This document shows, one piece after another, positions 3,544-33,108 of a stretch of DNA of 44,804 bases. Where the stretch lies: the sequence record NC_073052.1. One strand, 5' to 3'. Position numbers and translations under genes: made by a program. The DNA comes from Escherichia phage JLBYU60. Every line of letters begins with the position of its first letter. The stretch's first letter is position 1. Under the pieces are notes generated by a model that saw only the letters and a program-made list of their open reading frames with translations, was not told where the DNA came from and made no database searches.

Positions 3544-4630
3544 TCAATATATGGCGGATCGCATGATTCGCCGTCACATCTTCACCCAGCGCCTGAGCAA
3601 TGATCAGGCGCGAAGGGTGCTGGCTATGTGGGAGAAGTTCCGGCCCGCTTTACTTGGTAAGCTGACCGAGTTACTTGATGGCAAAAAGTCCATGAATAAC
3701 AAAGCACTTACCACACTGTTAACGCAACTCGACAAGACCGTCAAAACGGAACTGCGCACCGAGTTTAAGGCGTTGGCTGAAAGCCTTCAGGAGTTCGCCG
3801 ACACCGAGGCTGATTATCTCGCCGACACATTAACGGCAGCGATCCAGCCGGTAGTCGCCGTACCGGCGGTCGAGGTGGTTGGCGTAGTGACCGGCGCGCA
3901 GATCGCAGCAACGGCAATGAAAAACCCGTTCCAGGGCAATACCATGATGCAATGGCCTGACTCACTTTCTGAGTGGACCAGGACGCAGATCGGTAATCAG
4001 GTGCGGGCGGGATTCATCCAGGGCAAGCCAACGATGGAAATTATCGCGGACGTGAGGCGCGCGCTAGGCGGTCGTAGTGCGCAAGCCATCTCAAGCGTTG
4101 TTAAGTCCGCAGTAAACCACTATGCGGCGACTGCCCGCGAACTAATGGTAAAAGCAAATGACGATATTCTCGAAGGTCGCCAATGGTTATCTACATTGGA
4201 CACACATACTTCTCCCATGTGCCAGCTACGCGATCGCCTGTTTTATCCGGTTGATGTTACTCCCGACACCAAAGGAAAGCGCGGCGGGAAAGTGGTGGCG
4301 GGGTCGCAGTATGGCGCTGGCCCTGGCAAGCTGCATTATTGCTGCCGGTCGACGGAGACGTGGAAAGTCAAAGGCATGGAAGATTGGCCCAGTGGTAAGC
4401 GTCCGGCACTGAAGGCCGACGCGGGTCGATTGCTGAGTGAGCAGGTAGACGCGCAGACTGATTTCTTCTCATGGGTGCAGCGCCAGCCGCGCCATATCCT
4501 GGAAGAATTATATGGAGTGCAACGCGCCGACCAGATTATGCGCGGCGTGAAAGTGCCGAAGATGTTCACCGATTCTGGCGAACTGATGACTATTGCACAG
4601 CTTAAAAACCGGGGGTTATGGCGTGATTAA
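3527..4630 (+). CDS. Head morphogenesis / minor capsid protein (SPP1 gp7 / Mu F-like, putative)
   Basis: 367-aa ORF overlapping the portal stop; position between portal and scaffold is typical for this family; no motif-level confirmation. Confidence 0.5.
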   Translation: MARTINQYMADRMIRRHIFTQRLSNDQARRVLAMWEKFRPALLGKLTELLDGKKSMNNKALTTLLTQLDKTVKTELRTEFKALAESLQEFADTEADYLADTLTAAIQPVVAVPAVEVVGVVTGAQIAATAMKNPFQGNTMMQWPDSLSEWTRTQIGNQVRAGFIQGKPTMEIIADVRRALGGRSAQAISSVVKSAVNHYAATARELMVKANDDILEGRQWLSTLDTHTSPMCQLRDRLFYPVDVTPDTKGKRGGKVVAGSQYGAGPGKLHYCCRSTETWKVKGMEDWPSGKRPALKADAGRLLSEQVDAQTDFFSWVQRQPRHILEELYGVQRADQIMRGVKVPKMFTDSGELMTIAQLKNRGLWRD

Positions 4631-4952
4631 ATATGCAGCGATTGGACTGGTTATCGGTCTGGCGGTAGGATTCTGGCTAGGTGACTCCTATCGCGCTGGC
4701 GTAGTGGCGGAGGCGGCGCAAGAAGCGCAAGCCCAAGCCCAACGGCAGCAAACTAAAGTAATCGAGCGCTCCGTGCAGGCAGAACAAGCCCGCGACGTGG
4801 AATACCGGACTATCACAAAAGAGGTTGTTAAATATGTTACGCGCCCTGACCGCCCTGATTGTAGTTTTGACGCTGAGCGCGTGCGGATCAAGCAGCGTGC
4901 CGTTGATGCCGCTAACGGAGTCGGCACTGCGACCGCCGTGCAAGTTCGATAA
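4623..4952 (+). CDS. Putative i-spanin (Rz-like inner membrane spanin)
   Basis: N-terminal TM helix IGLVIGLAVGFWLG followed by A/Q/E/R-rich coiled-coil segment; probable GTG start at 4623 preceded by GGGGG RBS (six-frame ORF begins at TTG 4593); contains the o-spanin gene in the +1 frame. Confidence 0.6.
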   Translation: MIKYAAIGLVIGLAVGFWLGDSYRAGVVAEAAQEAQAQAQRQQTKVIERSVQAEQARDVEYRTITKEVVKYVTRPDRPDCSFDAERVRIKQRAVDAANGVGTATAVQVR

Positions 4953-15480: not shown

Positions 15481-16265
15481 ATAAACTTTATCGCGAGGCG
15501 ACGCGCTTTGACCCATCGGGTCGCGTTCGCCTGATTCACATTGACGCGCAGGACGTGGAGCCAGGCGACGGTGCGATCGGCGCGGGCCATCACTATTTCC
15601 ACTACTGCTTTATTCCGCACACTGCCGAGGATATTGCTGCCGCCGGTGGTGACGAGGACAAGCTAAAACCTAAATCCATCTTCTTCGGCGGGCAGGAGTT
15701 CGAATTTTGGCCCTTCGATTTGTCCGGCCTCAACTTCTCCACATCAACGGCAGCAGAACCGCAGCTGACTATCGTTGATATTGGCGGCATAATCACCCGG
15801 CTATCATTGAATCACGACCAGCTACTGGGCGCGAAGGTTGAAATAATCGACACGTTCGCGAAGTTCCTGGACAACGGGCCGGATCCAGACCCAACGCAAA
15901 AACGTGTCCAGGAGTTTTACATCGACTCGCAGGTCGGGCGCAATCCGGGCAAGCAAATTACCTTCGCACTATCCTCGCCTGCGGATATGGAAGGGCAGGT
16001 CGTTCCCCGTCGCCAAATCATGAATATGTGCGAATGGGCGCTCAACGGGAAGTACGCCAGCGGGGACGGGTGCACCTGGAACCTTGCGAGGCCCGGTATC
16101 AAGTATTACGACGAGCGAGGTAATGAAGTCATTGCGATGAATATGGACCGATGCGGCGGCTGTTTGTCTGACTGTTATCTTCGATTTGGGCAAGGGCTTG
16201 CGGACCCTAAAGCGGCGGTGCTGGACTTCGGCGGCTTTCCGGGGTCCAGATTAATTAAGGGGTAG
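15477..16265 (+). CDS. Minor tail protein (lambda gpL-like)
   Basis: 262 aa; C-terminal cysteine cluster CEWAL...DGCTWN...DRCGGCLSDC matching the Fe-S-binding cysteines of lambda gpL; gene order M-L-K-I-J. Confidence 0.8.
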   Translation: MNKLYREATRFDPSGRVRLIHIDAQDVEPGDGAIGAGHHYFHYCFIPHTAEDIAAAGGDEDKLKPKSIFFGGQEFEFWPFDLSGLNFSTSTAAEPQLTIVDIGGIITRLSLNHDQLLGAKVEIIDTFAKFLDNGPDPDPTQKRVQEFYIDSQVGRNPGKQITFALSSPADMEGQVVPRRQIMNMCEWALNGKYASGDGCTWNLARPGIKYYDERGNEVIAMNMDRCGGCLSDCYLRFGQGLADPKAAVLDFGGFPGSRLIKG

Positions 16266-26958: not shown

Positions 26959-27282
26959 TTACGCATAAAAGTTCGGGTCGCGTGCGACGTCTACCAGGTA
27001 AAGGTTGCTTATGCGGTTGCCGTAGTGCCCTGGAGTGCGCTGGCGGCACACAACGGCGAAGCCTGGAGGGATTGTATTGCCCGTCTCAATAATCCACGCC
27101 ACGCGTGCGCCAGACAGCGTCTTTCCGTTGCATTCGATACGTGTTCCGCCGTCGGCAGTATTGATGTTGCCAATCTTGCAGCCGGTGGACTTCAGACGGA
27201 TGACTCCGGTTTTGCTGTCGTAGGTGAATAGCTGGTTAGTCATTGCGACCGAAAAATCGATGGTTTCGTATGTAGCGTTCAT
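26959..27282 (-). CDS. HNH_3 (AP2-like) family protein, possible small homing endonuclease
   Basis: 107 aa with RBS GAGGAA; architecture NGKT...ARVAWII...IPPGF...GHYGNRISNLYLV parallels HNH_3 endonucleases though the His-Asn core is shortened. Confidence 0.5.
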   Translation of the reverse strand: MNATYETIDFSVAMTNQLFTYDSKTGVIRLKSTGCKIGNINTADGGTRIECNGKTLSGARVAWIIETGNTIPPGFAVVCRQRTPGHYGNRISNLYLVDVARDPNFYA

Positions 27283-27989
27283 TTTAAATTTTCCTCGTTA
27301 ACCGCTATCGCGAAGCCGCGCGGAGTGAGTGAGCGGATTAATTTTGTACGAGCGGATTTACCACCGAGGCGACTATACTGTTTCGAGTACCCTTTTTCAA
27401 CGAAAACAGGTTTCTTCTCTGGCATACGGAAGCCGTTGCCGGTCCATAAGCAAGTCAGCTTCGGATATGAATCGCGGGCGTTGATGTATTCCGGGAAGAG
27501 CGGGTGTACGTCATCCTCCGGCAGATACCCCCCATACTCCCACGGGTCGAACGAGTGATCCGGCTTGCGCCACTGGGTGGAAAGCACACTGCGCGGATTC
27601 TCAATCATATATGGCACTTCGAAGAAGTCACCCAGGTAAGCGGCGATCTTCGCGGTGCGCACCGCCTTAAGCTGAAAGGCTGGGTCTTTTGCACGCTTGC
27701 GCGGGAAAGCTGGCGCACCGCTCACCGCCAGATCCGTGCACGGCGGGAACGCATATATGATATCCGGAGTACCGAAATCGCCATTCATCGCACGGTCTAC
27801 AAAGTCCAGATCGATAAACTCATTGCGATACCGGATTCCGCGACCATAAATCCGGTAGTCAAGGTAAGACCCGTGATCGGCTTCGGAGTAGTTGAAGCAA
27901 TAACACTTATGCCCCATCTCGGCCGCACGCTCAATCATCAAGCCGCTGCCGTCAAACAGTGACCAGATTGTCATTTTAGCAATAGTCAT
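27279..27989 (-). CDS. Compact C5-methyltransferase-like protein (putative DNA cytosine-5 modification enzyme)
   Basis: 236 aa; motif I-like SLFDGSG, motif IV-like DIIYAFPPCTDLAVSGA (catalytic Pro-Cys), motif VI-like YMIENPRS, motif IX-like SLTPRG; no room for a normal target-recognition domain; start ATGA-overlaps the SNF2 helicase stop. Confidence 0.6.
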   Translation of the reverse strand: MTIAKMTIWSLFDGSGLMIERAAEMGHKCYCFNYSEADHGSYLDYRIYGRGIRYRNEFIDLDFVDRAMNGDFGTPDIIYAFPPCTDLAVSGAPAFPRKRAKDPAFQLKAVRTAKIAAYLGDFFEVPYMIENPRSVLSTQWRKPDHSFDPWEYGGYLPEDDVHPLFPEYINARDSYPKLTCLWTGNGFRMPEKKPVFVEKGYSKQYSRLGGKSARTKLIRSLTPRGFAIAVNEENLK

Positions 27990-29446
27990 TTGCGCGCCTT
28001 TTTAGCTTTCATGTATTCCATCAAGTCGTCCTGGATATCTCGCTTACTGTCGCGACGCTCGGCGACCAATTCGTCCAGTGTCCCGCGCGCCTGGATAATG
28101 TAGACGAATACCGGTCGAGGGTGTCCGGCCTGCATCTGGCGAACCGGCCCGATACGTTCAACGATCTGCGAAAAGTGCTCAAAGTTCCAGGTGTCGGAGA
28201 AGATTGCCAGGTGATGACCGCCGTCCTGCAAGTTAAGGCCGTGGCCCGCCGATGCCGGGTGTGCAAACATGATGGGGATCTCGCCCCTGTTCCACGCTTC
28301 CATATCCTTATTGCCCTGCTTACCTTTACCCAACGCAACGCCGTGCGGAAATTTCTTCTTAAGACGTGCCAGGTCATGCTTATACTGATACGCAACGAGC
28401 AACGGCGCGCCGTTCAACTCCTCCACGATACTTTCCAGTGCGTCCAGCTTCGCGTCGTGAATCTTCACCCATTCGTCGGTGCGCTCGCCGTCTTCGTCGA
28501 CCTTATACACGGCCCCGGAAGCAAGCTGAAGGCACTTAATAGTCTTCGAAGCAGCGTTCGCCGCCTCCACCGTTCCGCTTTCCAGTTCGGCAAATAGCTC
28601 CGCTTCGAATTGGTCATAAATCTTGCGGGCTTTTTTCGGCAGGTCCACAACAACCGGCGTATAGATTGGCTTGTCACACCCGAAGTATTCAGCCGCATCA
28701 ACGGTTAGCGACACGTCGGACAGTCGTTGTTGTATTTCTTTCTCGGAGTTCTTAAGCGGGGCGTGCTGCATCGTGAAGCTGCCAGGCTTAACCGGCTTGC
28801 TAATAAACCAGCGGTCTGTGAATGCCTTATAACTACTGCCGAGGCGTTCGCCACCGTCGACAAACCACGTCTGACCCCACAGGTCTTTCAGTCCGTTTGG
28901 TGCGGGTGTGCCAGTCAGGTTAATCCAGCGCTTGACGTGCTTATGTGCGATCGCTGCCAGCGCACGGGCGCGCTTACTTCCCTGCTTGCTTCTATAGCCT
29001 TTCAGCTTAGTGGATTCATCGGCAACCACGACCGTAAAGGGCCACTCGTCGCCGCAATACTCAACAAGCCACTCAACTACATCATAGTTAATACAAACCA
29101 CGTTAGCGTCGCTCTCAAGCGCAGCGATGCGGTCCTTCTCTGGCCCAGTGCCGTCTACTACCAGCAAGGCTGGGAAGCGCCATTTCTCCTGTTCCGGGGG
29201 CCATGTACCGGACGCAACGCGCAGCGGGGCCAGCACCAGTACGCGGTCATCCTGGTTGGACAGGATGCCAGTCTGGAACATTTTATTCAGCGCCCACATG
29301 GTCGCGCCGGTTTTACCCGACCCCATTGTCGCCCAAATATTGCAGCGCTTATGCTCGAGGATGAACGCGGTTATCAACTTCTGATATTCGCGGCGTCGGA
29401 ATCGTGCCATTTCTTTATTCCGCCTTTTTCCAGACTTCGGTTTCAC
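27986..29446 (-). CDS. SNF2-family ATP-dependent helicase
   Basis: Walker A MGSGKTG, DExx box VVADESTKL, SNF2 signature LTGTPAPNG, C-terminal helicase motifs (FAHPASAGHGLNLQDG...); start either GTG 29446 (RBS AAGGAA) or ATG 29410. Confidence 0.8.
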   Translation of the reverse strand: MKPKSGKRRNKEMARFRRREYQKLITAFILEHKRCNIWATMGSGKTGATMWALNKMFQTGILSNQDDRVLVLAPLRVASGTWPPEQEKWRFPALLVVDGTGPEKDRIAALESDANVVCINYDVVEWLVEYCGDEWPFTVVVADESTKLKGYRSKQGSKRARALAAIAHKHVKRWINLTGTPAPNGLKDLWGQTWFVDGGERLGSSYKAFTDRWFISKPVKPGSFTMQHAPLKNSEKEIQQRLSDVSLTVDAAEYFGCDKPIYTPVVVDLPKKARKIYDQFEAELFAELESGTVEAANAASKTIKCLQLASGAVYKVDEDGERTDEWVKIHDAKLDALESIVEELNGAPLLVAYQYKHDLARLKKKFPHGVALGKGKQGNKDMEAWNRGEIPIMFAHPASAGHGLNLQDGGHHLAIFSDTWNFEHFSQIVERIGPVRQMQAGHPRPVFVYIIQARGTLDELVAERRDSKRDIQDDLMEYMKAKKARK

Positions 29447-29633
29447 TGTTCCAGTTCCTTTTTGTAGCGTCGTAGTTGGTGGCGTGTCCGATGTGCACCC
29501 CGGTAGCCCGGAAGCTCTTAAATTTTTGCCAGCACACCGTCAACGGCAGCGGATCATTCATGCCCGCGATAAACCATACGCGATCGCCCGGTTTACATTC
29601 GCCCAGCTTGGTGAGTCGGTAATGTTCTTTCAT
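29415..29633 (-). CDS. Hypothetical protein
   Basis: 72 aa from ATG 29633 with RBS GGGAGA preceded by a terminator-like hairpin; no motifs. Confidence 0.45.
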   Translation of the reverse strand: MKEHYRLTKLGECKPGDRVWFIAGMNDPLPLTVCWQKFKSFRATGVHIGHATNYDATKRNWNSETEVWKKAE

Positions 29634-29645
29634 CGTCATGTCTCC

Positions 29646-29670
29646 CAAAAATGGCGGGACAAGCCCGCCG
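29646..29670 (-). terminator. Terminator-like hairpin on minus strand
   Basis: Minus strand reads GGCGGGC-ttgt-CCCGCC then ATTTTT, immediately followed by RBS GGGAGA and ATG of the 29415-29633 gene. Confidence 0.5.
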
Positions 29671-29676
29671 TATTAA

Positions 29677-29850
29677 TTATTTTTGTTCTGCACGGTAGCG
29701 GCGCTGCCGTTCGCGCTCTTTCTTATTGCGGCACGATTTGCACTCGGCCCTATACCCGTCTGGACTGCGCGCAGTCTTACCGGTGTATTTGTGGAACTGG
29801 GATAGCGGCTTTACACAGCCGCAATTACTGCAGCGTTTCTCTTCAATCAT
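29677..29850 (-). CDS. Small zinc-ribbon protein
   Basis: 57 aa from ATG 29850 with RBS GAGGA; CSNCGCVKPL...ECKSCRNKK matches the repeated N-terminal zinc-ribbon modules of the HNH endonuclease at 30166-30768. Confidence 0.45.
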   Translation of the reverse strand: MIEEKRCSNCGCVKPLSQFHKYTGKTARSPDGYRAECKSCRNKKERERQRRYRAEQK

Positions 29851-29890
29851 TTCTAAAATCCTCGTTAGTGCTAACCTGCTCACTATACTG

Positions 29891-30169
29891 TTAAGCGACC
29901 AAATCAGCAACCAATAAATCGCAGTCGACTATGTTGTCAATAACGCGAACGTTAGCACCGCGGCGGGCCATCCGCTCATGTTCGCGTACCTGGTGCGGCT
30001 TCGGTTTTCCACCGGGGCGCTTCACTTCGACGAACACTATTTTGCCGTTGATGATGATAATCAGGTCGGGCGCACCTGCGCGCCCCTCCCATGCCAGTTT
30101 TCGGCAGAATCCGCCTACCTCTTTCACCCGTCGCATCAGGTGACTTTGTATCTTGCCTTCTGGTGTCAT
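29891..30169 (-). CDS. VRR-NUC domain nuclease
   Basis: 92 aa from ATG 30169 with RBS AAGGA; core GAPDLIIIINGKIVFVEVKRPGGKPKPHQ typical of VRR-NUC (PD-(D/E)xK) proteins; start ATGA-overlaps HNH gene stop. Confidence 0.65.
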   Translation of the reverse strand: MTPEGKIQSHLMRRVKEVGGFCRKLAWEGRAGAPDLIIIINGKIVFVEVKRPGGKPKPHQVREHERMARRGANVRVIDNIVDCDLLVADLVA

Positions 30170-30768
30170 TGTCGGCTTTTCCTTACGGCAGCGATGGCAG
30201 GTCCGATAAACTTCTTCATTTCGTCCGGGGTAAACCGATCCCCGCGGGCTATGTTGCACTCTACGCAGCACGGCACGCAGTTATCTTTCGTATGGCCTAC
30301 TGCGTTGTCGAGTCGGTCCGCGCCATTGTCGCCGGTGAATCCGCAGTATGCGCACGGCTGAGAAGTAAGGCGCAGCACGTCCTCTGTAGTAAGGTCGGTG
30401 TTTAGCCCCTTCCTTTCGTCTGCCTTACGGTACTGAAAGAGTTTATAGTAAGCGCGGATCTCTGGTGTCCGGTGGTTGTACTCGCGGCGTGACTTATTAG
30501 CGCACGATCGGCATTCTTTACGAATATGTGACCCGTTTGCTTGGCTTCCTGGCCGGAAGTTTTCCGGCGTGAGCGGCTTGCGCTCACCGCACGTACGACA
30601 TGTTACGATCTCCCCGGTGTACTCTCGCCATACTTCTCTCGGCGGCGCGCCTCTTTCCTTATCCCGTCTCTCTTTCTTATATGCCGCCATGCATTTGGCG
30701 CACCACGACTGGCCCTTGTTGAAAGCGGACTCATCTTTACCCGTATTACAACGCCCACAATGTTTCAT
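30166..30768 (-). CDS. HNH endonuclease with N-terminal zinc-ribbon repeats
   Basis: 200 aa from ATG 30768 with RBS GAGGTG; C-terminal HNH core CAYCGFTGDNGADRLDNAVGHTKDNCVPCCVECN; two CxxC...CxxC modules at the N-terminus. Confidence 0.7.
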   Translation of the reverse strand: MKHCGRCNTGKDESAFNKGQSWCAKCMAAYKKERRDKERGAPPREVWREYTGEIVTCRTCGERKPLTPENFRPGSQANGSHIRKECRSCANKSRREYNHRTPEIRAYYKLFQYRKADERKGLNTDLTTEDVLRLTSQPCAYCGFTGDNGADRLDNAVGHTKDNCVPCCVECNIARGDRFTPDEMKKFIGPAIAAVRKSRQ

Positions 30769-30816
30769 ATACACCTCGAAAAAGAAAACGCCAGACAATA
30801 ATGCCCAACGTTTCCG

Positions 30817-33108
30817 CTACTTGCGGTAGCGATACATGCAATCGCCCTCTGCGGCGAGTGGGAAGCCTTTCGCCCAAATAGGTAGGTCGCACATCAGCGC
30901 GCAAAGCTCCTCGGTCGTGTAGTCGTCAGTGTCCGGCACTTCTGTGATCAATTCGTCGTGTACGGACAGGACGATCTCATACCCCGCGGCTTCAACGCCA
31001 GGCATGGACCATGCGAGAATATCGCGGCACAACGCCTGTACGATGTTCTCCGTCAGTTTGCCGCCGTAGGTGTACTGGAAACCCCACTGGCGCGTAGTCT
31101 GATTCTCGCCCTGGTATTTGATGCGGGTGCTGGTGCGCTTCTTGCCGGTGTCTTCGTCGATCTCGGTCGTGACAGATAGCGCGATGCCGGGATAGCTCAT
31201 GATGCGCCCTGAAGGCAACTCAATTTTAAGCCACCACCCCGCGGCGTTCGGGTCGTCGCGCTCCTCGTCAAAGGTTGGGTCGTGCTTCGCCTTCGTACGG
31301 ACAATCTTGAGCGCTTTTCTACCGTCCGGGCGAACGTTCGCACCCGCCCAGTATGCTTTGCCCGGATTGCGGATTGCACACAACACCGCGTCCTCAAGCT
31401 CGGCCCAAAAGGCTACCGTCATCGGGTGAGACTCACGCCACATACGTTTGATCGCGTCACACGTCAACCACACGTTTTTTGGCAGTATGTAAGTTGGGCG
31501 CTCGTCTTTCTTGCCAGGCTTCGGCGGGCGCTTGGCTTCGTTAATGCGGGCATACTCATAACCACGTTTCGCCGCGGCCCAAATATGATCGGGGAATGTG
31601 CCCTTCATGACGTCCGCCATCGCATACAGGTCGAGGCCCAGGTTTTTAGCAAACTGCAGGAACGCTGCAACACCGCCACCATAGCCCAACCCCAATTCGC
31701 ACGCCTTACCAATCTGGCGCAAGTCTTTGCGGTTGGCTTTGATGTATTCCGGGTCGAGGCCAAACATCTTACCGGCAGTCTCACAATAGATATCACGATC
31801 GGCCTTAAACACCATTAGCGCGGTTTTCTCGCCAGCGATCCAGGCAAGCCCGCGACCTTCCACGTTAGAAAAGTCAGCTACAACAAACTTCTTGCCCTTA
31901 GCCGGAATAATGCACCCGCGAACGGTCGAGGCCGTTAACTTCGATATGTCATACGCCCAGTGTGCAGTCCCGCGTAACAGGGAGTTGATGCCGTTGGTGA
32001 GCATGTGCGACCGCACCCAATAAGAAACGTCGCTCTCGCCATCACGGCGTTTAATCTTCCCTTCATGGTCGTCGCTGTACTCGCCACGCGCCAGGTTTTG
32101 AGGTTGAAAGCCTTTACCGGCCCAGCGTAGCGTGCGCTTTGCCCCACCATACTGAAGACAACCACGGCGGCGACCATCTGCGGATAAGCCGTTAACTAGC
32201 GGATTGTACTTAGTCGATGCCGTTGATGACGCACCGAGGCGCATTTCGATAAGCGCTTTGCCTTCGTCGGGGAAGTCCGGGTCTTCAAGCAGGTCATTCA
32301 GCGTGGATTTCTGCGCGTTGTGGATTGTGAACGCTGGCGCAATATCACGCAGGATTGGCAGGAAGTCATTGCCGGTCAGCTTACCGCCAAATCGCTCCCA
32401 GGCTTCCTCCTTCAATTCTTCCTTATGCGCCTGCACCGCTTTGATCGCGGCGTTCGCCAGGTCAACGTCCACATAGAAGCCGCGGTCGTTGATCAACTGG
32501 TCAATAAGCAGTATCTCGTCTTCCTTCGGAGTATTACCCCAGTCCGGTATGCGCCAGTAGACCTCACGCATCGCGATAATATCCAGCGCGGCATATCGCA
32601 GAAATTTGGCCCATTCTTCAGGGTGAGTCTCGCGCGTGTAGCGGCGTATTTTGTAGGTCTTAGGGGTAGGCTTACAGAATCGTTTGATCAGCGCCTTGCC
32701 TGCCTTATCCTTCGCGTGCTCTGCGTCAACGCCCAACACCTGACACTGCATATCGAGGCTACCCGGCAGCGCGTGGCGAAAGGCCATAATCATTGTGTCT
32801 TCGATCTGGCTTACCGGCAGGTCAATACCCCACTTCTCGCGGATAACCAGGCGGTCAAACAGGAGGCCGTTAGCCATCACTATTTTTGCTTTCTTGCGGG
32901 AAACATGGCGGAGCGCCTTGCGCAGTTCACGCGGCATTGTGGGGGATTCAGTGCAATCCCATGTCTGCACGCGGCCCTCGTCGATGGCGTATGTGCAAAT
33001 CATAATCTCGGTGGTTGGGTGCTCTGCGTAGGCGTACGCCCCAACCTTCTTTAGGTCCACCCCGCTAAATGTCTCGGTGTCGAGAAACAGACGTTCGAAG
33101 TCTTTCAT
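30817..33108 (-). CDS. DNA polymerase, family A, with 3'-5' proofreading exonuclease domain
   Basis: 763 aa; Exo I-like LFLDTETFSG; Pol A motif A DFSNVEGRGLAWIAGE, motif B RQIGKACELGLGYGGG, motif C VLSVHDELI. Confidence 0.9.
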   Translation of the reverse strand: MKDFERLFLDTETFSGVDLKKVGAYAYAEHPTTEIMICTYAIDEGRVQTWDCTESPTMPRELRKALRHVSRKKAKIVMANGLLFDRLVIREKWGIDLPVSQIEDTMIMAFRHALPGSLDMQCQVLGVDAEHAKDKAGKALIKRFCKPTPKTYKIRRYTRETHPEEWAKFLRYAALDIIAMREVYWRIPDWGNTPKEDEILLIDQLINDRGFYVDVDLANAAIKAVQAHKEELKEEAWERFGGKLTGNDFLPILRDIAPAFTIHNAQKSTLNDLLEDPDFPDEGKALIEMRLGASSTASTKYNPLVNGLSADGRRRGCLQYGGAKRTLRWAGKGFQPQNLARGEYSDDHEGKIKRRDGESDVSYWVRSHMLTNGINSLLRGTAHWAYDISKLTASTVRGCIIPAKGKKFVVADFSNVEGRGLAWIAGEKTALMVFKADRDIYCETAGKMFGLDPEYIKANRKDLRQIGKACELGLGYGGGVAAFLQFAKNLGLDLYAMADVMKGTFPDHIWAAAKRGYEYARINEAKRPPKPGKKDERPTYILPKNVWLTCDAIKRMWRESHPMTVAFWAELEDAVLCAIRNPGKAYWAGANVRPDGRKALKIVRTKAKHDPTFDEERDDPNAAGWWLKIELPSGRIMSYPGIALSVTTEIDEDTGKKRTSTRIKYQGENQTTRQWGFQYTYGGKLTENIVQALCRDILAWSMPGVEAAGYEIVLSVHDELITEVPDTDDYTTEELCALMCDLPIWAKGFPLAAEGDCMYRYRK

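What the first reader, a model, noticed from the sequence alone, without database searches (positions are those of the whole stretch)
29677..30768. Nuclease cluster beside the DNA polymerase with a duplicated zinc-ribbon module
An HNH endonuclease (30166-30768) with two N-terminal CxxC...CxxC modules, a VRR-NUC nuclease (29891-30169) and a 57-aa free-standing zinc-ribbon protein (29677-29850) whose sequence matches the HNH N-terminal modules are chained by ATGA overlaps. The stand-alone module looks like a duplicated fragment of the endonuclease DNA-binding domain and might compete for the same DNA sites. A second HNH_3-like gene lies at 26959-27282.
Basis: seen in the sequence. Interest (0 to 1): 0.45.

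Follow-up and report, generated by a model that had tools for sequence, protein, structure and literature searches.

The report
Mobile HNH cassette plus zinc-ribbon gene
In this Dhillonvirus-type coliphage, a 648-bp selfish PacI-like HNH endonuclease cassette sits between the DNA polymerase and VRR-NUC genes; the small zinc-ribbon gene nearby is not a copy of it but an old, conserved replication-module gene with the same widespread zinc-ribbon fold, which is an ordinary arrangement for phages.

Summary
The three ORFs exist as described, on the minus strand of a Dhillonvirus (HK578/EP23-like) genome. The 92-aa protein is a VRR-NUC nuclease. The 200-aa protein has two N-terminal Cys4 zinc-ribbon modules and a C-terminal PacI-like His-Me (HNH) nuclease. 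The 57-aa protein is a single zinc ribbon plus a basic helix. It is significantly but distantly similar to HNH module 2 (40% identity over 45 aa, E=3e-5). Only one ATGA overlap exists, between HNH and VRR-NUC.

The "duplicated fragment" reading fails. The small gene is in essentially all ~156 Dhillonvirus records, under strong purifying selection, and keeps its position in several other phage lineages. Its nearest relatives are all free-standing small proteins. The neighbouring HNH module ranks 156th of 162 against its profile, and there is no DNA similarity.

The HNH gene is a 648-bp cassette found in only 26 records. It sits exactly between the pol stop and the VRR-NUC start, which overlap as TAATG in empty sites. 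It is 100% identical to phage Gluttony's copy while the flanks are 89-92% identical. One relative carries a decayed chimeric copy. This is a typical free-standing homing-endonuclease-type element. The finding is ordinary; the function of the small protein remains unknown.

The parts
30170..30817 (-). 648-bp HNH cassette: leader with terminator-like hairpin, RBS and the HNH CDS. It is inserted between the pol stop codon and the VRR-NUC ATG.
   Evidence: Empty sites in EP23 and Gluttony_ev152 read AAGTAATGACACC, with the pol TAA overlapping the VRR-NUC ATG. The length difference to EP23 is 1801-1153 = 648. There are no mismatches to Gluttony over 30152-30855 while the flanks are 88.7-91.7% identical.
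30166..30768 (-). 200-aa endonuclease CDS: two zinc-ribbon modules plus a PacI-like His-Me/HNH nuclease. Its stop overlaps the VRR-NUC start (ATGA).
   Evidence: ORF. phrog_1035 'endonuclease VII' at 2.4e-42. PacI 3ldy at E=4e-10 and Foldseek 1.7e-5. AF2 mean pLDDT 81.4. pN/pS 0.12.
30655..30759 (-). HNH zinc-ribbon module 1 (C4, C7, C23, C26) plus a basic helix (residues 24-38).
   Evidence: Cys positions. The helix is in the AF2 model, but confidence is low here (pLDDT 51-73). phrog_5558 alignment covers residues 1-103.
30469..30609 (-). HNH zinc-ribbon module 2 (C57, C60, C86, C89) plus a helix (residues 87-100). This is the part that resembles the 57-aa protein.
   Evidence: BLASTP E=3e-5. 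Shuffle tests. Strand/helix order E54-56, E63-65, E71-73, E82-86, H87-100 matches the small-protein model.
30169..30456 (-). PacI-like beta-beta-alpha-metal nuclease domain. Zn ligands C139/C142/C168/C171. D151-R152-L-D154-N155, G158-H159, N163, N172.
   Evidence: The HMM alignment to PacI puts H159 at PacI's loop Tyr, and DRxD and CN line up. Family conservation. pLDDT >=89 for residues 101-200.
30784..30815 (-). Terminator-like hairpin (14-pair stem followed by a U run) in the cassette leader, just after the pol stop and before the HNH RBS.
   Evidence: Scan. RNA fold of 30755-30830(-) is -24.8 kcal/mol, z=-3.2. A stronger hairpin plus T-run occupies the same place in the divergent cassette of L099.
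29891..30169 (-). VRR-NUC nuclease (92 aa), annotated as a Holliday-junction-resolvase-like protein in relatives.
   Evidence: Pfam VRR_NUC above the cut-off. phrog_93 at 6.7e-30 and phrog_5702 'Holliday junction resolvase'. PD...E-V-K motif in the sequence.
29677..29850 (-). 57-aa free-standing zinc-ribbon protein (C7, C10, C37, C40; signature KPLxxFHKYxG..ARSPDGxRAxCKxCRN) with a basic C-terminal helix. It is a core gene of the replication module.
   Evidence: AF2 pLDDT 89.8, four strands plus helix 38-56. pN/pS 0.039. Present in about 156 records. Syntenic orthologues.
29653..29669 (-). Terminator-like hairpin GGCGGGCTTGTCCCGCC followed by ATTTTTG, immediately after the small ORF.
   Evidence: Scan. 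The same element is annotated as a terminator in PTXU06. The fold is only modestly better than shuffles (z=-1.9).
30817..33108 (-). Family A DNA polymerase (763 aa). Its stop codon forms one boundary of the cassette.
   Evidence: ORF. Annotated as DNA polymerase I in all relatives.
27986..29446 (-). SNF2-type DNA helicase, the downstream end of the conserved pol / VRR-NUC / zinc-ribbon / helicase block.
   Evidence: ORF. Annotations. tblastn synteny.
26959..27282 (-). It is near-core in the genus and probably degenerate.
   Evidence: phrog_99 at 3e-16 and Pfam HNH_3 at E=0.082. The region is present in 146 of 155 records. 'VVCRQR' stands where HNH_3 has 'vdHid' (reading of the sequence).

Best explanation
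There are two separate things here.

(1) The 200-aa gene is the cargo of a 648-bp free-standing, homing-endonuclease-type cassette.
- Shown: it is site-specifically placed, sporadically distributed, laterally exchanged, and able to decay.
- Inferred: the two N-terminal zinc-ribbon modules recognise DNA. The C-terminal PacI-like beta-beta-alpha-metal domain cuts it, with D151 and N172 as metal ligands and H159 at the position of PacI's general-base Tyr. The likely target is the conserved pol-3'-end / VRR-NUC-5'-end junction of cassette-less genomes during mixed infection. Recombinational repair from the cassette-bearing genome would then copy the cassette in.
- Inferred: expression is probably kept low by a terminator-like hairpin after pol. 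The ATGA overlap preserves translation of the VRR-NUC gene downstream.

(2) The 57-aa protein is an independent, ancient member of the same broad zinc-ribbon superfamily. Those modules are Stc1-like and usually occur as tandem repeats N-terminal to HNH, EndoVII or DUF968 nucleases.
- Shown: it is a core gene under strong purifying selection, with a fixed place in the pol / VRR-NUC / X / SNF2-helicase replication module of several phage lineages.
- Inferred: its conserved basic and aromatic surface and basic helix suggest it binds nucleic acid in replication or recombination, or regulates that module, independently of the HNH cassette.
For: HNH nuclease identity:
- PacI hmmsearch E=4e-10, with DRxD / G[H/Y] / N / CN aligned.
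- Foldseek top hit 3ldy, probability 1.00.
- The motif is conserved across homologues.
- PacI uses Asp and Asn for the metal and Tyr as the general base (PMC4081073; PMC5714182).

Mobility of the cassette:
- 26 of 156 records carry it.
- Empty sites are exact (TAATG), and the same slot holds alternative alleles: a 31-nt spacer, and a 63-aa ORF found in 56 records.
- 603 of 603 nt and the 48-nt leader are identical to Gluttony, while the adjacent VRR-NUC is 88.7% and the pol 3' end 91.7% identical. The identity tract runs 30152-30855.
- The window's VRR-NUC is closest to phages that lack the cassette or carry the other cassette allele.
- Phage bob carries an in-frame chimera of HNH residues 1-148 with the ORF63 C-terminus.
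- A cassette 67% identical in protein sits in the same slot, with the same TAGCGGAAATGTTG junction, in a Smarc3-like lineage. Smarc3 itself has another gene there.
- HNH pN/pS is 0.12.

Small gene:
- It is present in about 156 Dhillonvirus records, plus Edwardsiella eiAU and Serratia Smarc3.
- 21 IMG/VR loci have the pol / VRR-NUC / X / helicase order. It lies directly after polA in L017 and L018.
- pN/pS is 0.039.
- The profile search found 2422 clusters. The best single-domain hits are all free-standing, and the window's own HNH module scores 11.6 bits.
- Multi-module relatives hit Pfam Stc1 together with HNH, Endonuclease_7 or DUF968.
- The AF2 model is confident and has the same topology as HNH module 2.
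Against: - No biochemical or genetic evidence for cleavage or homing is available here. The target site is inferred only from the insertion point.
- No SNPs in the flanks are fixed between cassette-plus and cassette-minus genomes. So no immunity polymorphism other than the insertion itself was found.
- The identity tract ends within about 15-40 nt of the cassette, which is a very short co-conversion tract for classical homing. Ordinary mosaic recombination could give the same pattern.
- The canonical beta-1 His is replaced by Arg (R152), and relatives alternate H and Y at position 159. Activity is therefore assumed by analogy with PacI.
- For the small protein, no DNA-binding evidence and no significant PDB fold match exist. 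Its function is a guess from conservation, charge and gene neighbourhood.
Confidence: 0.72

Rival explanations
1. The 57-aa gene is a duplicated fragment of the neighbouring endonuclease's DNA-binding domain, and it acts by competing with that endonuclease for the same DNA sites.
For: Real sequence and fold similarity to HNH module 2. The two genes lie about 320 nt apart on the same strand and plausibly in one transcript.
Against: - The small gene is present at >=90% identity in about 130 records that lack the HNH gene.
- It is syntenic in other genera.
- Its nearest relatives are free-standing proteins. The neighbouring module ranks 156 of 162, at 11.6 bits.
- The family signature EFHKY...ARSPDG.RA.CK.CRN is absent from the HNH module.
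- There is no DNA similarity (29 of 300 shuffles score as well).
Confidence: 0.05
2. The small protein is a domesticated homing-endonuclease DNA-binding module. It would work in trans, either as a site-specific regulator (as CapR does in Vibrio PLE satellites) or as a specificity or protection subunit for HNH-type nucleases in general. Candidates include the near-core HNH_3-like gene or invading HEGs. One version would have it shield the pol/VRR-NUC region from cleavage.
For: - The module family is overwhelmingly found fused to HNH, EndoVII or DUF968 nucleases.
- Free-standing zinc-ribbon proteins next to phage HNH endonucleases have been noted and proposed as regulators or mini-specificity subunits (PMC3592412).
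- CapR is a precedent for a domesticated HEG zinc-finger domain acting as a repressor (PMC10448857).
- In eiAU a canonical HNH gene directly follows the small ORF.
- The region around the small gene is an HEG hot spot: a pol intron or intein, the slot alleles, and flanking HNH_3 genes in L017.
Against: No direct evidence. The small gene persists where no adjacent nuclease other than VRR-NUC is present (EP23, L018). The strong, uniform conservation (pN/pS 0.039) looks more like a housekeeping replication factor than an arms-race gene.
Confidence: 0.15
3. The 200-aa nuclease is not a homing enzyme. It is an accessory nuclease useful to the phage, for example a PacI-like restriction-type enzyme against host or competitor DNA, or a recombination or repair nuclease. 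It would spread among Dhillonviruses only by ordinary mosaic recombination.
For: - The closest solved relative is a restriction enzyme.
- Viral PacI-group members have been suggested to be viral 'restrictases' (PMC5714182).
- The gene is under purifying selection (pN/pS 0.12).
- The identity tracts end very near the cassette.
- No immunity SNPs were found.
Against: - It always sits in the same slot next to an essential gene, even in a second genus.
- The slot is polymorphic, with clean empty sites.
- A decayed chimera exists.
- All of this is the pattern described for phage HEGs at boundaries of genetic exchange (PMC10448857).
Confidence: 0.2
4. The 57-aa protein is a Lar-like restriction-alleviation protein, or a KilA-type anti-repressor, as it is labelled in several database records.
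For: Best PHROG is phrog_5558 'Lar-like restriction alleviation protein' at 6.5e-17. RefSeq records use that name.
Against: No Pfam Lar or KilA hit at E<=1. The same PHROG also matches the HNH N-terminus, so the label follows the shared zinc ribbon. Papers that use the term are genome announcements only. The gene's position in the replication module of strictly lytic phages does not fit an anti-repressor.
Confidence: 0.03

Closest known systems
Restriction endonuclease PacI (PDB 3LDY/3M7K; His-Me finger group 20 of Jablonska et al. 2017)
   Same: The nuclease domain is homologous by sequence profile and by fold. It shares the Cys4 zinc site, the D-R-x-D strand in place of the canonical D-H, a loop G-[Y/H], and the C-x-x-C-N helix.
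   Different: - The window protein has His (H159) where PacI has the catalytic Tyr. Some homologues have Tyr.
- It carries two N-terminal zinc-ribbon modules, where PacI has an HTH-like N-terminus according to Jablonska et al. (PMC5714182).
- It is phage-borne, in a mobile intergenic cassette, and is not a bacterial restriction enzyme.
- Its specificity is unknown.
Free-standing phage homing endonucleases (T4 MobE and Seg proteins; cyanophage F-CphI; HEGs at boundaries of genetic exchange, Barth et al. 2023)
   Same: An intergenic, self-contained gene next to an essential replication gene. Its distribution among close relatives is sporadic. Sequence identity breaks sharply at its borders. Decayed copies exist, and its DNA-binding modules are repeated zinc fingers or ribbons.
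   Different: The catalytic domain is PacI-like rather than canonical HNH, EndoVII (DHDH) or T5orf172. Cleavage and homing have not been shown. The apparent co-conversion tracts are very short.
Stc1 domain (Pfam PF12898) and tandem zinc-ribbon modules of HNH/EndoVII proteins
   Same: Proteins retrieved by the small-protein profile at E down to 1e-22 carry 2-9 copies of the module. They hit Pfam Stc1 above its threshold, often together with HNH, Endonuclease_7 or DUF968.
   Different: Neither the 57-aa protein nor the window HNH reaches Stc1 at E<=1. Only 3 of 12 free-standing relatives hit it, and weakly. The fungal Stc1 protein has a different biological role (from my own recall, not checked here).
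Zinc-ribbon proteins (ZRP) adjacent to phage HNH endonucleases (Xu & Gupta 2013, 'Group 4')
   Same: A small stand-alone zinc-ribbon protein encoded near an HNH endonuclease that itself carries zinc-ribbon domains. Its function is unstudied, and it has been proposed as a regulator or mini-specificity subunit.
   Different: Those HNH endonucleases are nickases next to cos and terminase genes. Here the small gene is separated from the HNH gene by VRR-NUC, and it persists without the HNH gene.
CapR of Vibrio PLE satellites (a domesticated HEG DNA-binding domain)
   Same: A free-standing zinc-finger DNA-binding domain homologous to the repeated DNA-binding domains of phage HEGs.
   Different: CapR belongs to a different zinc-finger family (CxxC...CxC; CapR, DUF723, DUF4397), is encoded by a satellite, and has a shown repressor function. 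Nothing comparable is shown for the 57-aa protein.

Membership tests
His-Me finger / HNH nuclease, PacI-like group | beta-beta-alpha-metal fold | tested here: met
   The AF2 model has strands 149-152 and 164-167 and helix 169-175, with pLDDT >=91. The top Foldseek hit is PacI 3ldy (E=1.7e-5), followed by the Gme HNH nickase 4h9d.
His-Me finger / HNH nuclease, PacI-like group | Structural Cys4 zinc site flanking the motif (CxxC ... CxxC) | tested here: met
   C139, C142, C168 and C171 are invariant or nearly invariant in the family alignment. Zinc binding itself was not measured.
His-Me finger / HNH nuclease, PacI-like group | Asp and Asn metal ligands (PacI: one Asp and one Asn) | tested here: met
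   D151 (in DRLDN) and N172 (in CN) align with PacI's VDRSD and CN. The role of these residues in PacI comes from PMC4081073.
His-Me finger / HNH nuclease, PacI-like group | General base: canonical His at the end of beta-1, or in PacI a Tyr in the loop | tested here: inconclusive
   The canonical position holds R152, as in PacI. The loop position holds H159 in the window, and Y in P0009, P0010, P0012 and P0013. This is chemically plausible but untested.
His-Me finger / HNH nuclease, PacI-like group | Metal-dependent DNA cleavage; homodimer | not testable with these tools
   Needs purified protein.
Pfam HNH / HNH_3 / Endonuclease_7 (curated models) | Score above the gathering threshold | tested here: not met
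   The 200-aa protein gets no Pfam family at E<=1. The PHROG label 'endonuclease VII' (phrog_1035) is not backed by Pfam Endonuclease_7, and the protein lacks the DHDH motif described for that family (PMC6083498).
Free-standing homing endonuclease gene | Sporadic presence at one fixed site among close relatives, with intact empty sites | tested here: met
   26 of 156 records carry it, always between pol and VRR-NUC. Empty sites read TAATG.
Free-standing homing endonuclease gene | History of the element discordant with that of its flanks (lateral movement) | tested here: met
   It is 100% identical to Gluttony over 30152-30855, against 88.7% and 91.7% in the adjacent genes.
Free-standing homing endonuclease gene | Degenerate or decaying copies in some lineages | tested here: met
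   Phage bob gp01 is an in-frame chimera that lacks the nuclease motif.
Free-standing homing endonuclease gene | Cleaves the element-less allele and is inherited super-Mendelianly in crosses | not testable with these tools
No immunity SNPs were found in the flanks.
VRR-NUC (PF08774) | Pfam score above the gathering threshold and a PD-(D/E)xK-type D...E-x-K motif | tested here: met
   26 bits against 23.8. The sequence reads ...GAPDLIIIINGKIVFVEVKRPGG....
Stc1 domain (PF12898) | Pfam score above the gathering threshold for the 57-aa protein or for the HNH N-terminus | tested here: not met
   There is no hit at E<=1. The link is only transitive, through multi-module relatives that do pass. 3 of 12 free-standing relatives hit it, with a best E of 0.0012.
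Lar restriction-alleviation protein | Match to a curated Lar model, or shown restriction alleviation | tested here: not met
   There is no Pfam or NCBIfam Lar hit. Only the PHROG label supports it.
HNH_3 (for the 107-aa ORF at 26959-27282) | Pfam score above the gathering threshold and an intact catalytic His | tested here: not met
   13 bits against a cut-off of 24.8, E=0.082. 'VVCRQR' stands where the model has 'vdHid' (sequence).

The most novel reading that the evidence does not exclude
The 57-aa zinc-ribbon family (signature KPLxEFHKYxG..ARSxDGxRAxCKxCRN) is a domesticated homing-endonuclease DNA-binding module. It has become a fixed component of the polA / VRR-NUC / SNF2-helicase replication module in several siphophage lineages. 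There it would act as a sequence-specific DNA binder, either regulating the module or shielding this HEG-infested region from invading endonucleases. That would make it a phage-encoded counterpart of the satellite protein CapR.
Probability: 0.12. Interest if true: 0.5.

Novelty: new member of a known kind. Interest (0 to 1): 0.2.

Why it matters
The practical value is mostly in annotation.
- The 200-aa protein, variously labelled 'hypothetical', 'endonuclease VII' or 'restriction endonuclease' in databases, is a PacI-type His-Me nuclease on a mobile 648-bp cassette.
- The pol/VRR-NUC junction of Dhillonviruses is a polymorphic slot with at least four alleles. It should be left out of phylogenies.
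- The labels 'Lar-like restriction alleviation' and 'KilA anti-repressor' on the 57-aa gene are unsupported.
- A PacI-clade enzyme with His at the position of PacI's catalytic Tyr, fused to modular zinc ribbons, could interest enzyme engineers.
- The small, strongly conserved zinc-ribbon gene is a cheap knockout target for learning what this common replication module needs.

None of this challenges current understanding.

Tried and rejected
- Word-indexed homologue searches returned almost nothing (3 and 10 clusters). The exhaustive profile search was needed.
- Pfam and NCBIfam gave no usable hit for the HNH protein or the small protein.
- A PDB fold search with the small-protein model gave only non-significant generic zinc-finger hits (best E=1.1).
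- I looked for SNPs in the flanks that are fixed between cassette-plus and cassette-minus genomes, as a sign of target-site immunity. There were none.
- I looked for DNA-level similarity between the small gene and the HNH gene. There was none.
- I looked for further copies of the module in the window. There were none.
- The sigma-70 promoter scan of 29300-31000 found nothing.
- The PacI recognition site TTAATTAA occurs once in the window, at 16251, against about 0.3 expected. This is uninformative.
- I considered that the eiAU orthologue might be fused to the adjacent HNH gene, which would make the Dhillonvirus gene a truncated HEG. It is a separate ORF in another frame.
Full report
**Context.** The window is a Dhillonvirus (HK578/EP23/SO-1-like E. 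coli siphophage). The 1.8-kb region around the finding matches 156 phage records at 80-99% identity, nearly all of them Escherichia or Shigella Dhillonviruses. The genes of interest are on the minus strand, in the replication module. Their order is ssDNA-annealing protein, family A DNA polymerase (30817-33108), the 200-aa protein (30166-30768), VRR-NUC (29891-30169), the 57-aa protein (29677-29850), a 73-aa ORF (29415-29636), SNF2 helicase (27986-29446), cytosine methyltransferase, and a 107-aa HNH_3-like ORF (26959-27282).

**Checking the observation.**
- The three ORFs are there at the stated coordinates.
- The 92-aa protein passes Pfam VRR_NUC (26 bits against a cut-off of 23.8). It matches PHROG families annotated as endonuclease and Holliday junction resolvase.
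- The 200-aa protein has no Pfam hit at E<=1. It matches phrog_1035 'endonuclease VII' at 2e-42. It has cysteine pairs at 4/7, 23/26, 57/60, 86/89, 139/142 and 164/167/168/171.
- The 57-aa protein has C7/C10/C37/C40.
- BLASTP of the small protein against the 200-aa protein aligns it with residues 57-100: 18 of 45 identical, E=3e-5. A second, marginal alignment covers residues 2-53 (E=0.14).
- In shuffle tests the module 2 score was reached by 0 of 2000 shuffles, and by 1 of 2000 with the cysteines held in place. Module 1 was reached by 6 and 40 of 2000 respectively. Modules 1 and 2 are not significantly alike.
- hhalign of a 12-member alignment of free-standing relatives against the 200-aa protein gives 82% probability, E=1e-5.
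- AlphaFold models give the same order of elements for the small protein (strands 4-6, 13-15, 19-21, 33-37, helix 38-56; pLDDT 89.8) and for module 2 (strands 54-56, 63-65, 71-73, 82-86, helix 87-100).
- So the shared module is real, but it is distant.
- The statement about ATGA overlaps is only half right. The HNH stop and the VRR-NUC start overlap (30166-30169), but the small ORF starts 40 nt after the VRR-NUC stop, behind its own GAGGA.

**What the 200-aa protein is.**
- A profile of the protein and its 10 retrievable homologues hits restriction endonuclease PacI (3LDY) at E=4e-10 and an HNH nickase (4H9D) at 0.001.
- Foldseek with the AF2 model (pLDDT >=89 over residues 101-200) also puts PacI first (E=1.7e-5, probability 1.00).
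- The alignment pairs window D151-R-L-D154 with PacI V-D-R-S-D, G158-H159 with PacI G-Y, and C168..C171-N172 with PacI's C..C-N.
- In PacI the metal is held by one Asp and one Asn, and a loop tyrosine replaces the usual histidine general base (PMC4081073; PMC5714182).
- In this family the corresponding residue is His in the window protein and Tyr in four homologues.
- The protein is thus a PacI-group His-Me finger nuclease with two N-terminal zinc ribbons. 'HNH endonuclease' is correct in the broad sense. 'Endonuclease VII' is not, because the protein lacks the DHDH motif that defines that family (PMC6083498).

**The 200-aa gene is a mobile cassette.**
- Only 26 of the 156 related records contain it.
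- An alignment of filled and empty sites shows the boundary. In EP23 and Gluttony_ev152 the polymerase stop and the VRR-NUC start overlap (AAGTAATGACACC).
- PTXU06 has a 31-nt spacer in the slot. UDS3lw has an unrelated 63-aa ORF, and that ORF occurs in 56 records.
- The cassette is 648 nt in the window (30170-30817). It consists of a leader with a terminator-like hairpin (30784-30815), an RBS and the CDS. The stop of the CDS is fused to the VRR-NUC ATG.
- The window's cassette is 603 of 603 nt identical to that of phage Gluttony, and the 48-nt leader is identical too. The adjoining VRR-NUC gene is 88.7% identical and the pol 3' end 91.7% identical.
- The mismatch-free tract runs from 30152 to 30855, apart from one 18-nt indel. 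With about 9% divergence in the flanks, such a tract is not expected by chance (my estimate, about 0.91^663).
- The window's VRR-NUC is instead closest to phages that lack the cassette or carry the other cassette allele.
- Phage bob carries an in-frame chimera of HNH residues 1-148 with the C-terminus of the 63-aa ORF. This removes the nuclease motif.
- A cassette only 67% identical in protein lies in the same slot, behind the same TAGCGGAAATGTTG junction and a strong hairpin plus T-run, in a Smarc3-like phage lineage. Smarc3 itself has a different gene there.
- HNH pN/pS is 0.12.
- Taken together, these are the hallmarks of a free-standing homing endonuclease gene next to an essential gene, as described for T4 and ICP1 (PMC10448857).
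- What is not shown is cleavage, the target, or super-Mendelian inheritance. No flank SNP separates cassette-plus from cassette-minus genomes. If homing occurs, the simplest target is the junction that the insertion itself disrupts.

**What the 57-aa protein is.**
- tblastn finds it at >=90% identity in about 156 Dhillonvirus records, irrespective of the cassette. It is also found at 67% in Edwardsiella phage eiAU and at 50% in Serratia phage Smarc3.
- In eiAU (where it is unannotated), in Smarc3 and in L099 it lies between VRR-NUC and the helicase.
- In a further metagenomic lineage it directly follows polA.
- Among 79 IMG/VR loci encoding relatives, the 21 with the closest matches all have the polA / VRR-NUC / X / SNF2-helicase context. 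The more distant matches are N-terminal modules of 117-442-aa ORFs elsewhere.
- pN/pS is 0.039, as low as for the polymerase.
- An exhaustive profile search of 1.84 billion representative proteins found 2422 clusters at E<=1e-3. Most have 2-9 tandem copies. A sample of these hits Pfam Stc1 together with HNH, Endonuclease_7 or DUF968.
- Ranked by best single domain, the top 12 are all free-standing proteins of 54-110 aa that share the signature KPLxEFHKYxG..ARSxDGxRAxCKxCRN. The window's own HNH module scores 11.6 bits, rank 156 of 162.
- There is no DNA similarity between the two genes and no other copy of the module in the window.
- The small gene is therefore an old, independent member of a widespread zinc-ribbon superfamily. 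It is not a duplicate of its neighbour.
- The database names 'Lar-like restriction alleviation protein' and 'KilA anti-repressor' have no support from curated models. They appear only in genome announcements.

**Mechanism.**
- For the cassette I commit to the homing-type reading, with confidence about 0.7 for 'mobile selfish nuclease cassette'. The zinc ribbons bind DNA, and the PacI-like domain cuts with D151 and N172 as metal ligands and H159 as general base. The break in a cassette-less co-infecting genome is repaired from the cassette-bearing one. The leader hairpin limits read-through from pol, and the ATGA overlap keeps VRR-NUC translated. The nuclease fold, the insertion anatomy and the lateral transfer are shown. 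The rest is inferred.
- For the small protein the evidence supports 'a conserved nucleic-acid-binding accessory of the replication/recombination module'. This rests only on conservation, position, the basic and aromatic conserved residues, and the basic helix.
- The literature offers two alternative precedents: stand-alone zinc-ribbon proteins beside HNH nickases, proposed as regulators or specificity subunits (PMC3592412), and CapR, a domesticated HEG zinc-finger repressor (PMC10448857).
But because the small gene is kept in about 130 records without the cassette, it cannot be the gene's main role.

**Verdict.** What is there is an ordinary phage arrangement: a sporadic homing-type HNH cassette in a polymorphic slot beside the DNA polymerase, plus a conserved small zinc-ribbon gene of unknown function that shares only an ancient module with it. 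Interest is low (0.2). The novelty class is a new member of a known kind.

Noticed in passing
window 30815/30816 (pol-HNH junction): All other cassette-bearing relatives have an 18-nt imperfect direct repeat here (TAGCGGAAATGTTGCTTT | TAGCGGAAACGTTGGGCA). The window has only one copy. The first copy resembles the 31-nt spacer allele of PTXU06, which suggests the cassette entered a spacer-type site by recombination.
   Followed up: partly
window 30784-30815 (-) and L099 ~365-395: There is a terminator-like hairpin with a U/T run inside the cassette leader, between the pol stop and the HNH RBS. It is present in both the Dhillonvirus cassette and the divergent Smarc3-like cassette. Cassette-less genomes have no such element, because pol and VRR-NUC overlap.
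   Followed up: partly
phage bob gp01 (P0005); L003 2366-2557: This is an in-frame chimera of HNH residues 1-148 with the C-terminal 48 residues of the unrelated 63-aa ORF that occupies the same slot in 56 records. The junction lies at a shared GGCGCGG.
   Followed up: partly
window 26959-27282 (-): The 107-aa HNH_3-like ORF is near-core in the genus (its region is in 146 of 155 records). It covers only about a quarter of the PHROG profile, and its catalytic His appears to be replaced (VVCRQR). It is probably a degenerate or domesticated HNH_3 remnant.
   Followed up: partly
L015 (Edwardsiella phage eiAU, NC_042029) ~4004-4165: The orthologue of the 57-aa gene is not annotated in RefSeq. It is overlapped by the annotated start of a canonical HNH endonuclease gene (4113-4637) in another frame. 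That HNH start is probably called too far upstream.
   Followed up: no
L002 (EP23), L005 (P-GXEC-L2P5), L010 (SO-1): DNA polymerase gene: The pol gene of these relatives spans 3189 nt, against 2292 nt in the window. SO-1 is annotated with a group I intron carrying an HNH gene, and Pubbukkers with an intein. The window's pol lacks this insert.
   Followed up: no
L077, L079-L082, L086 (IMG/VR contigs): The syntenic orthologue in this lineage has a CxxxC first knuckle (CNGPC) and a 30-residue N-terminal extension.
   Followed up: no
L017 vs L018 (metagenomic phage contigs): Two closely related contigs differ by HNH_3 genes inserted just before polA and just after the small zinc-ribbon gene. This is another sign that this module is an HEG hot spot.
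   Followed up: no
public records found: Dhillonvirus-like genomes are deposited as 'Campylobacter phage A144' and 'Acinetobacter phage NJ01'. P-GXEC-L2P5 is an 88.6-kb record, about twice the genome size. These are likely mislabelling or assembly artefacts.
   Followed up: no
window 29415-29636 (-): The 73-aa ORF after the small gene belongs to phrog_9291 (unknown function, E=2e-47). It is conserved in position before the helicase in Dhillonviruses. An ORF of similar size sits at the same place in Smarc3 and L099.
   Followed up: no
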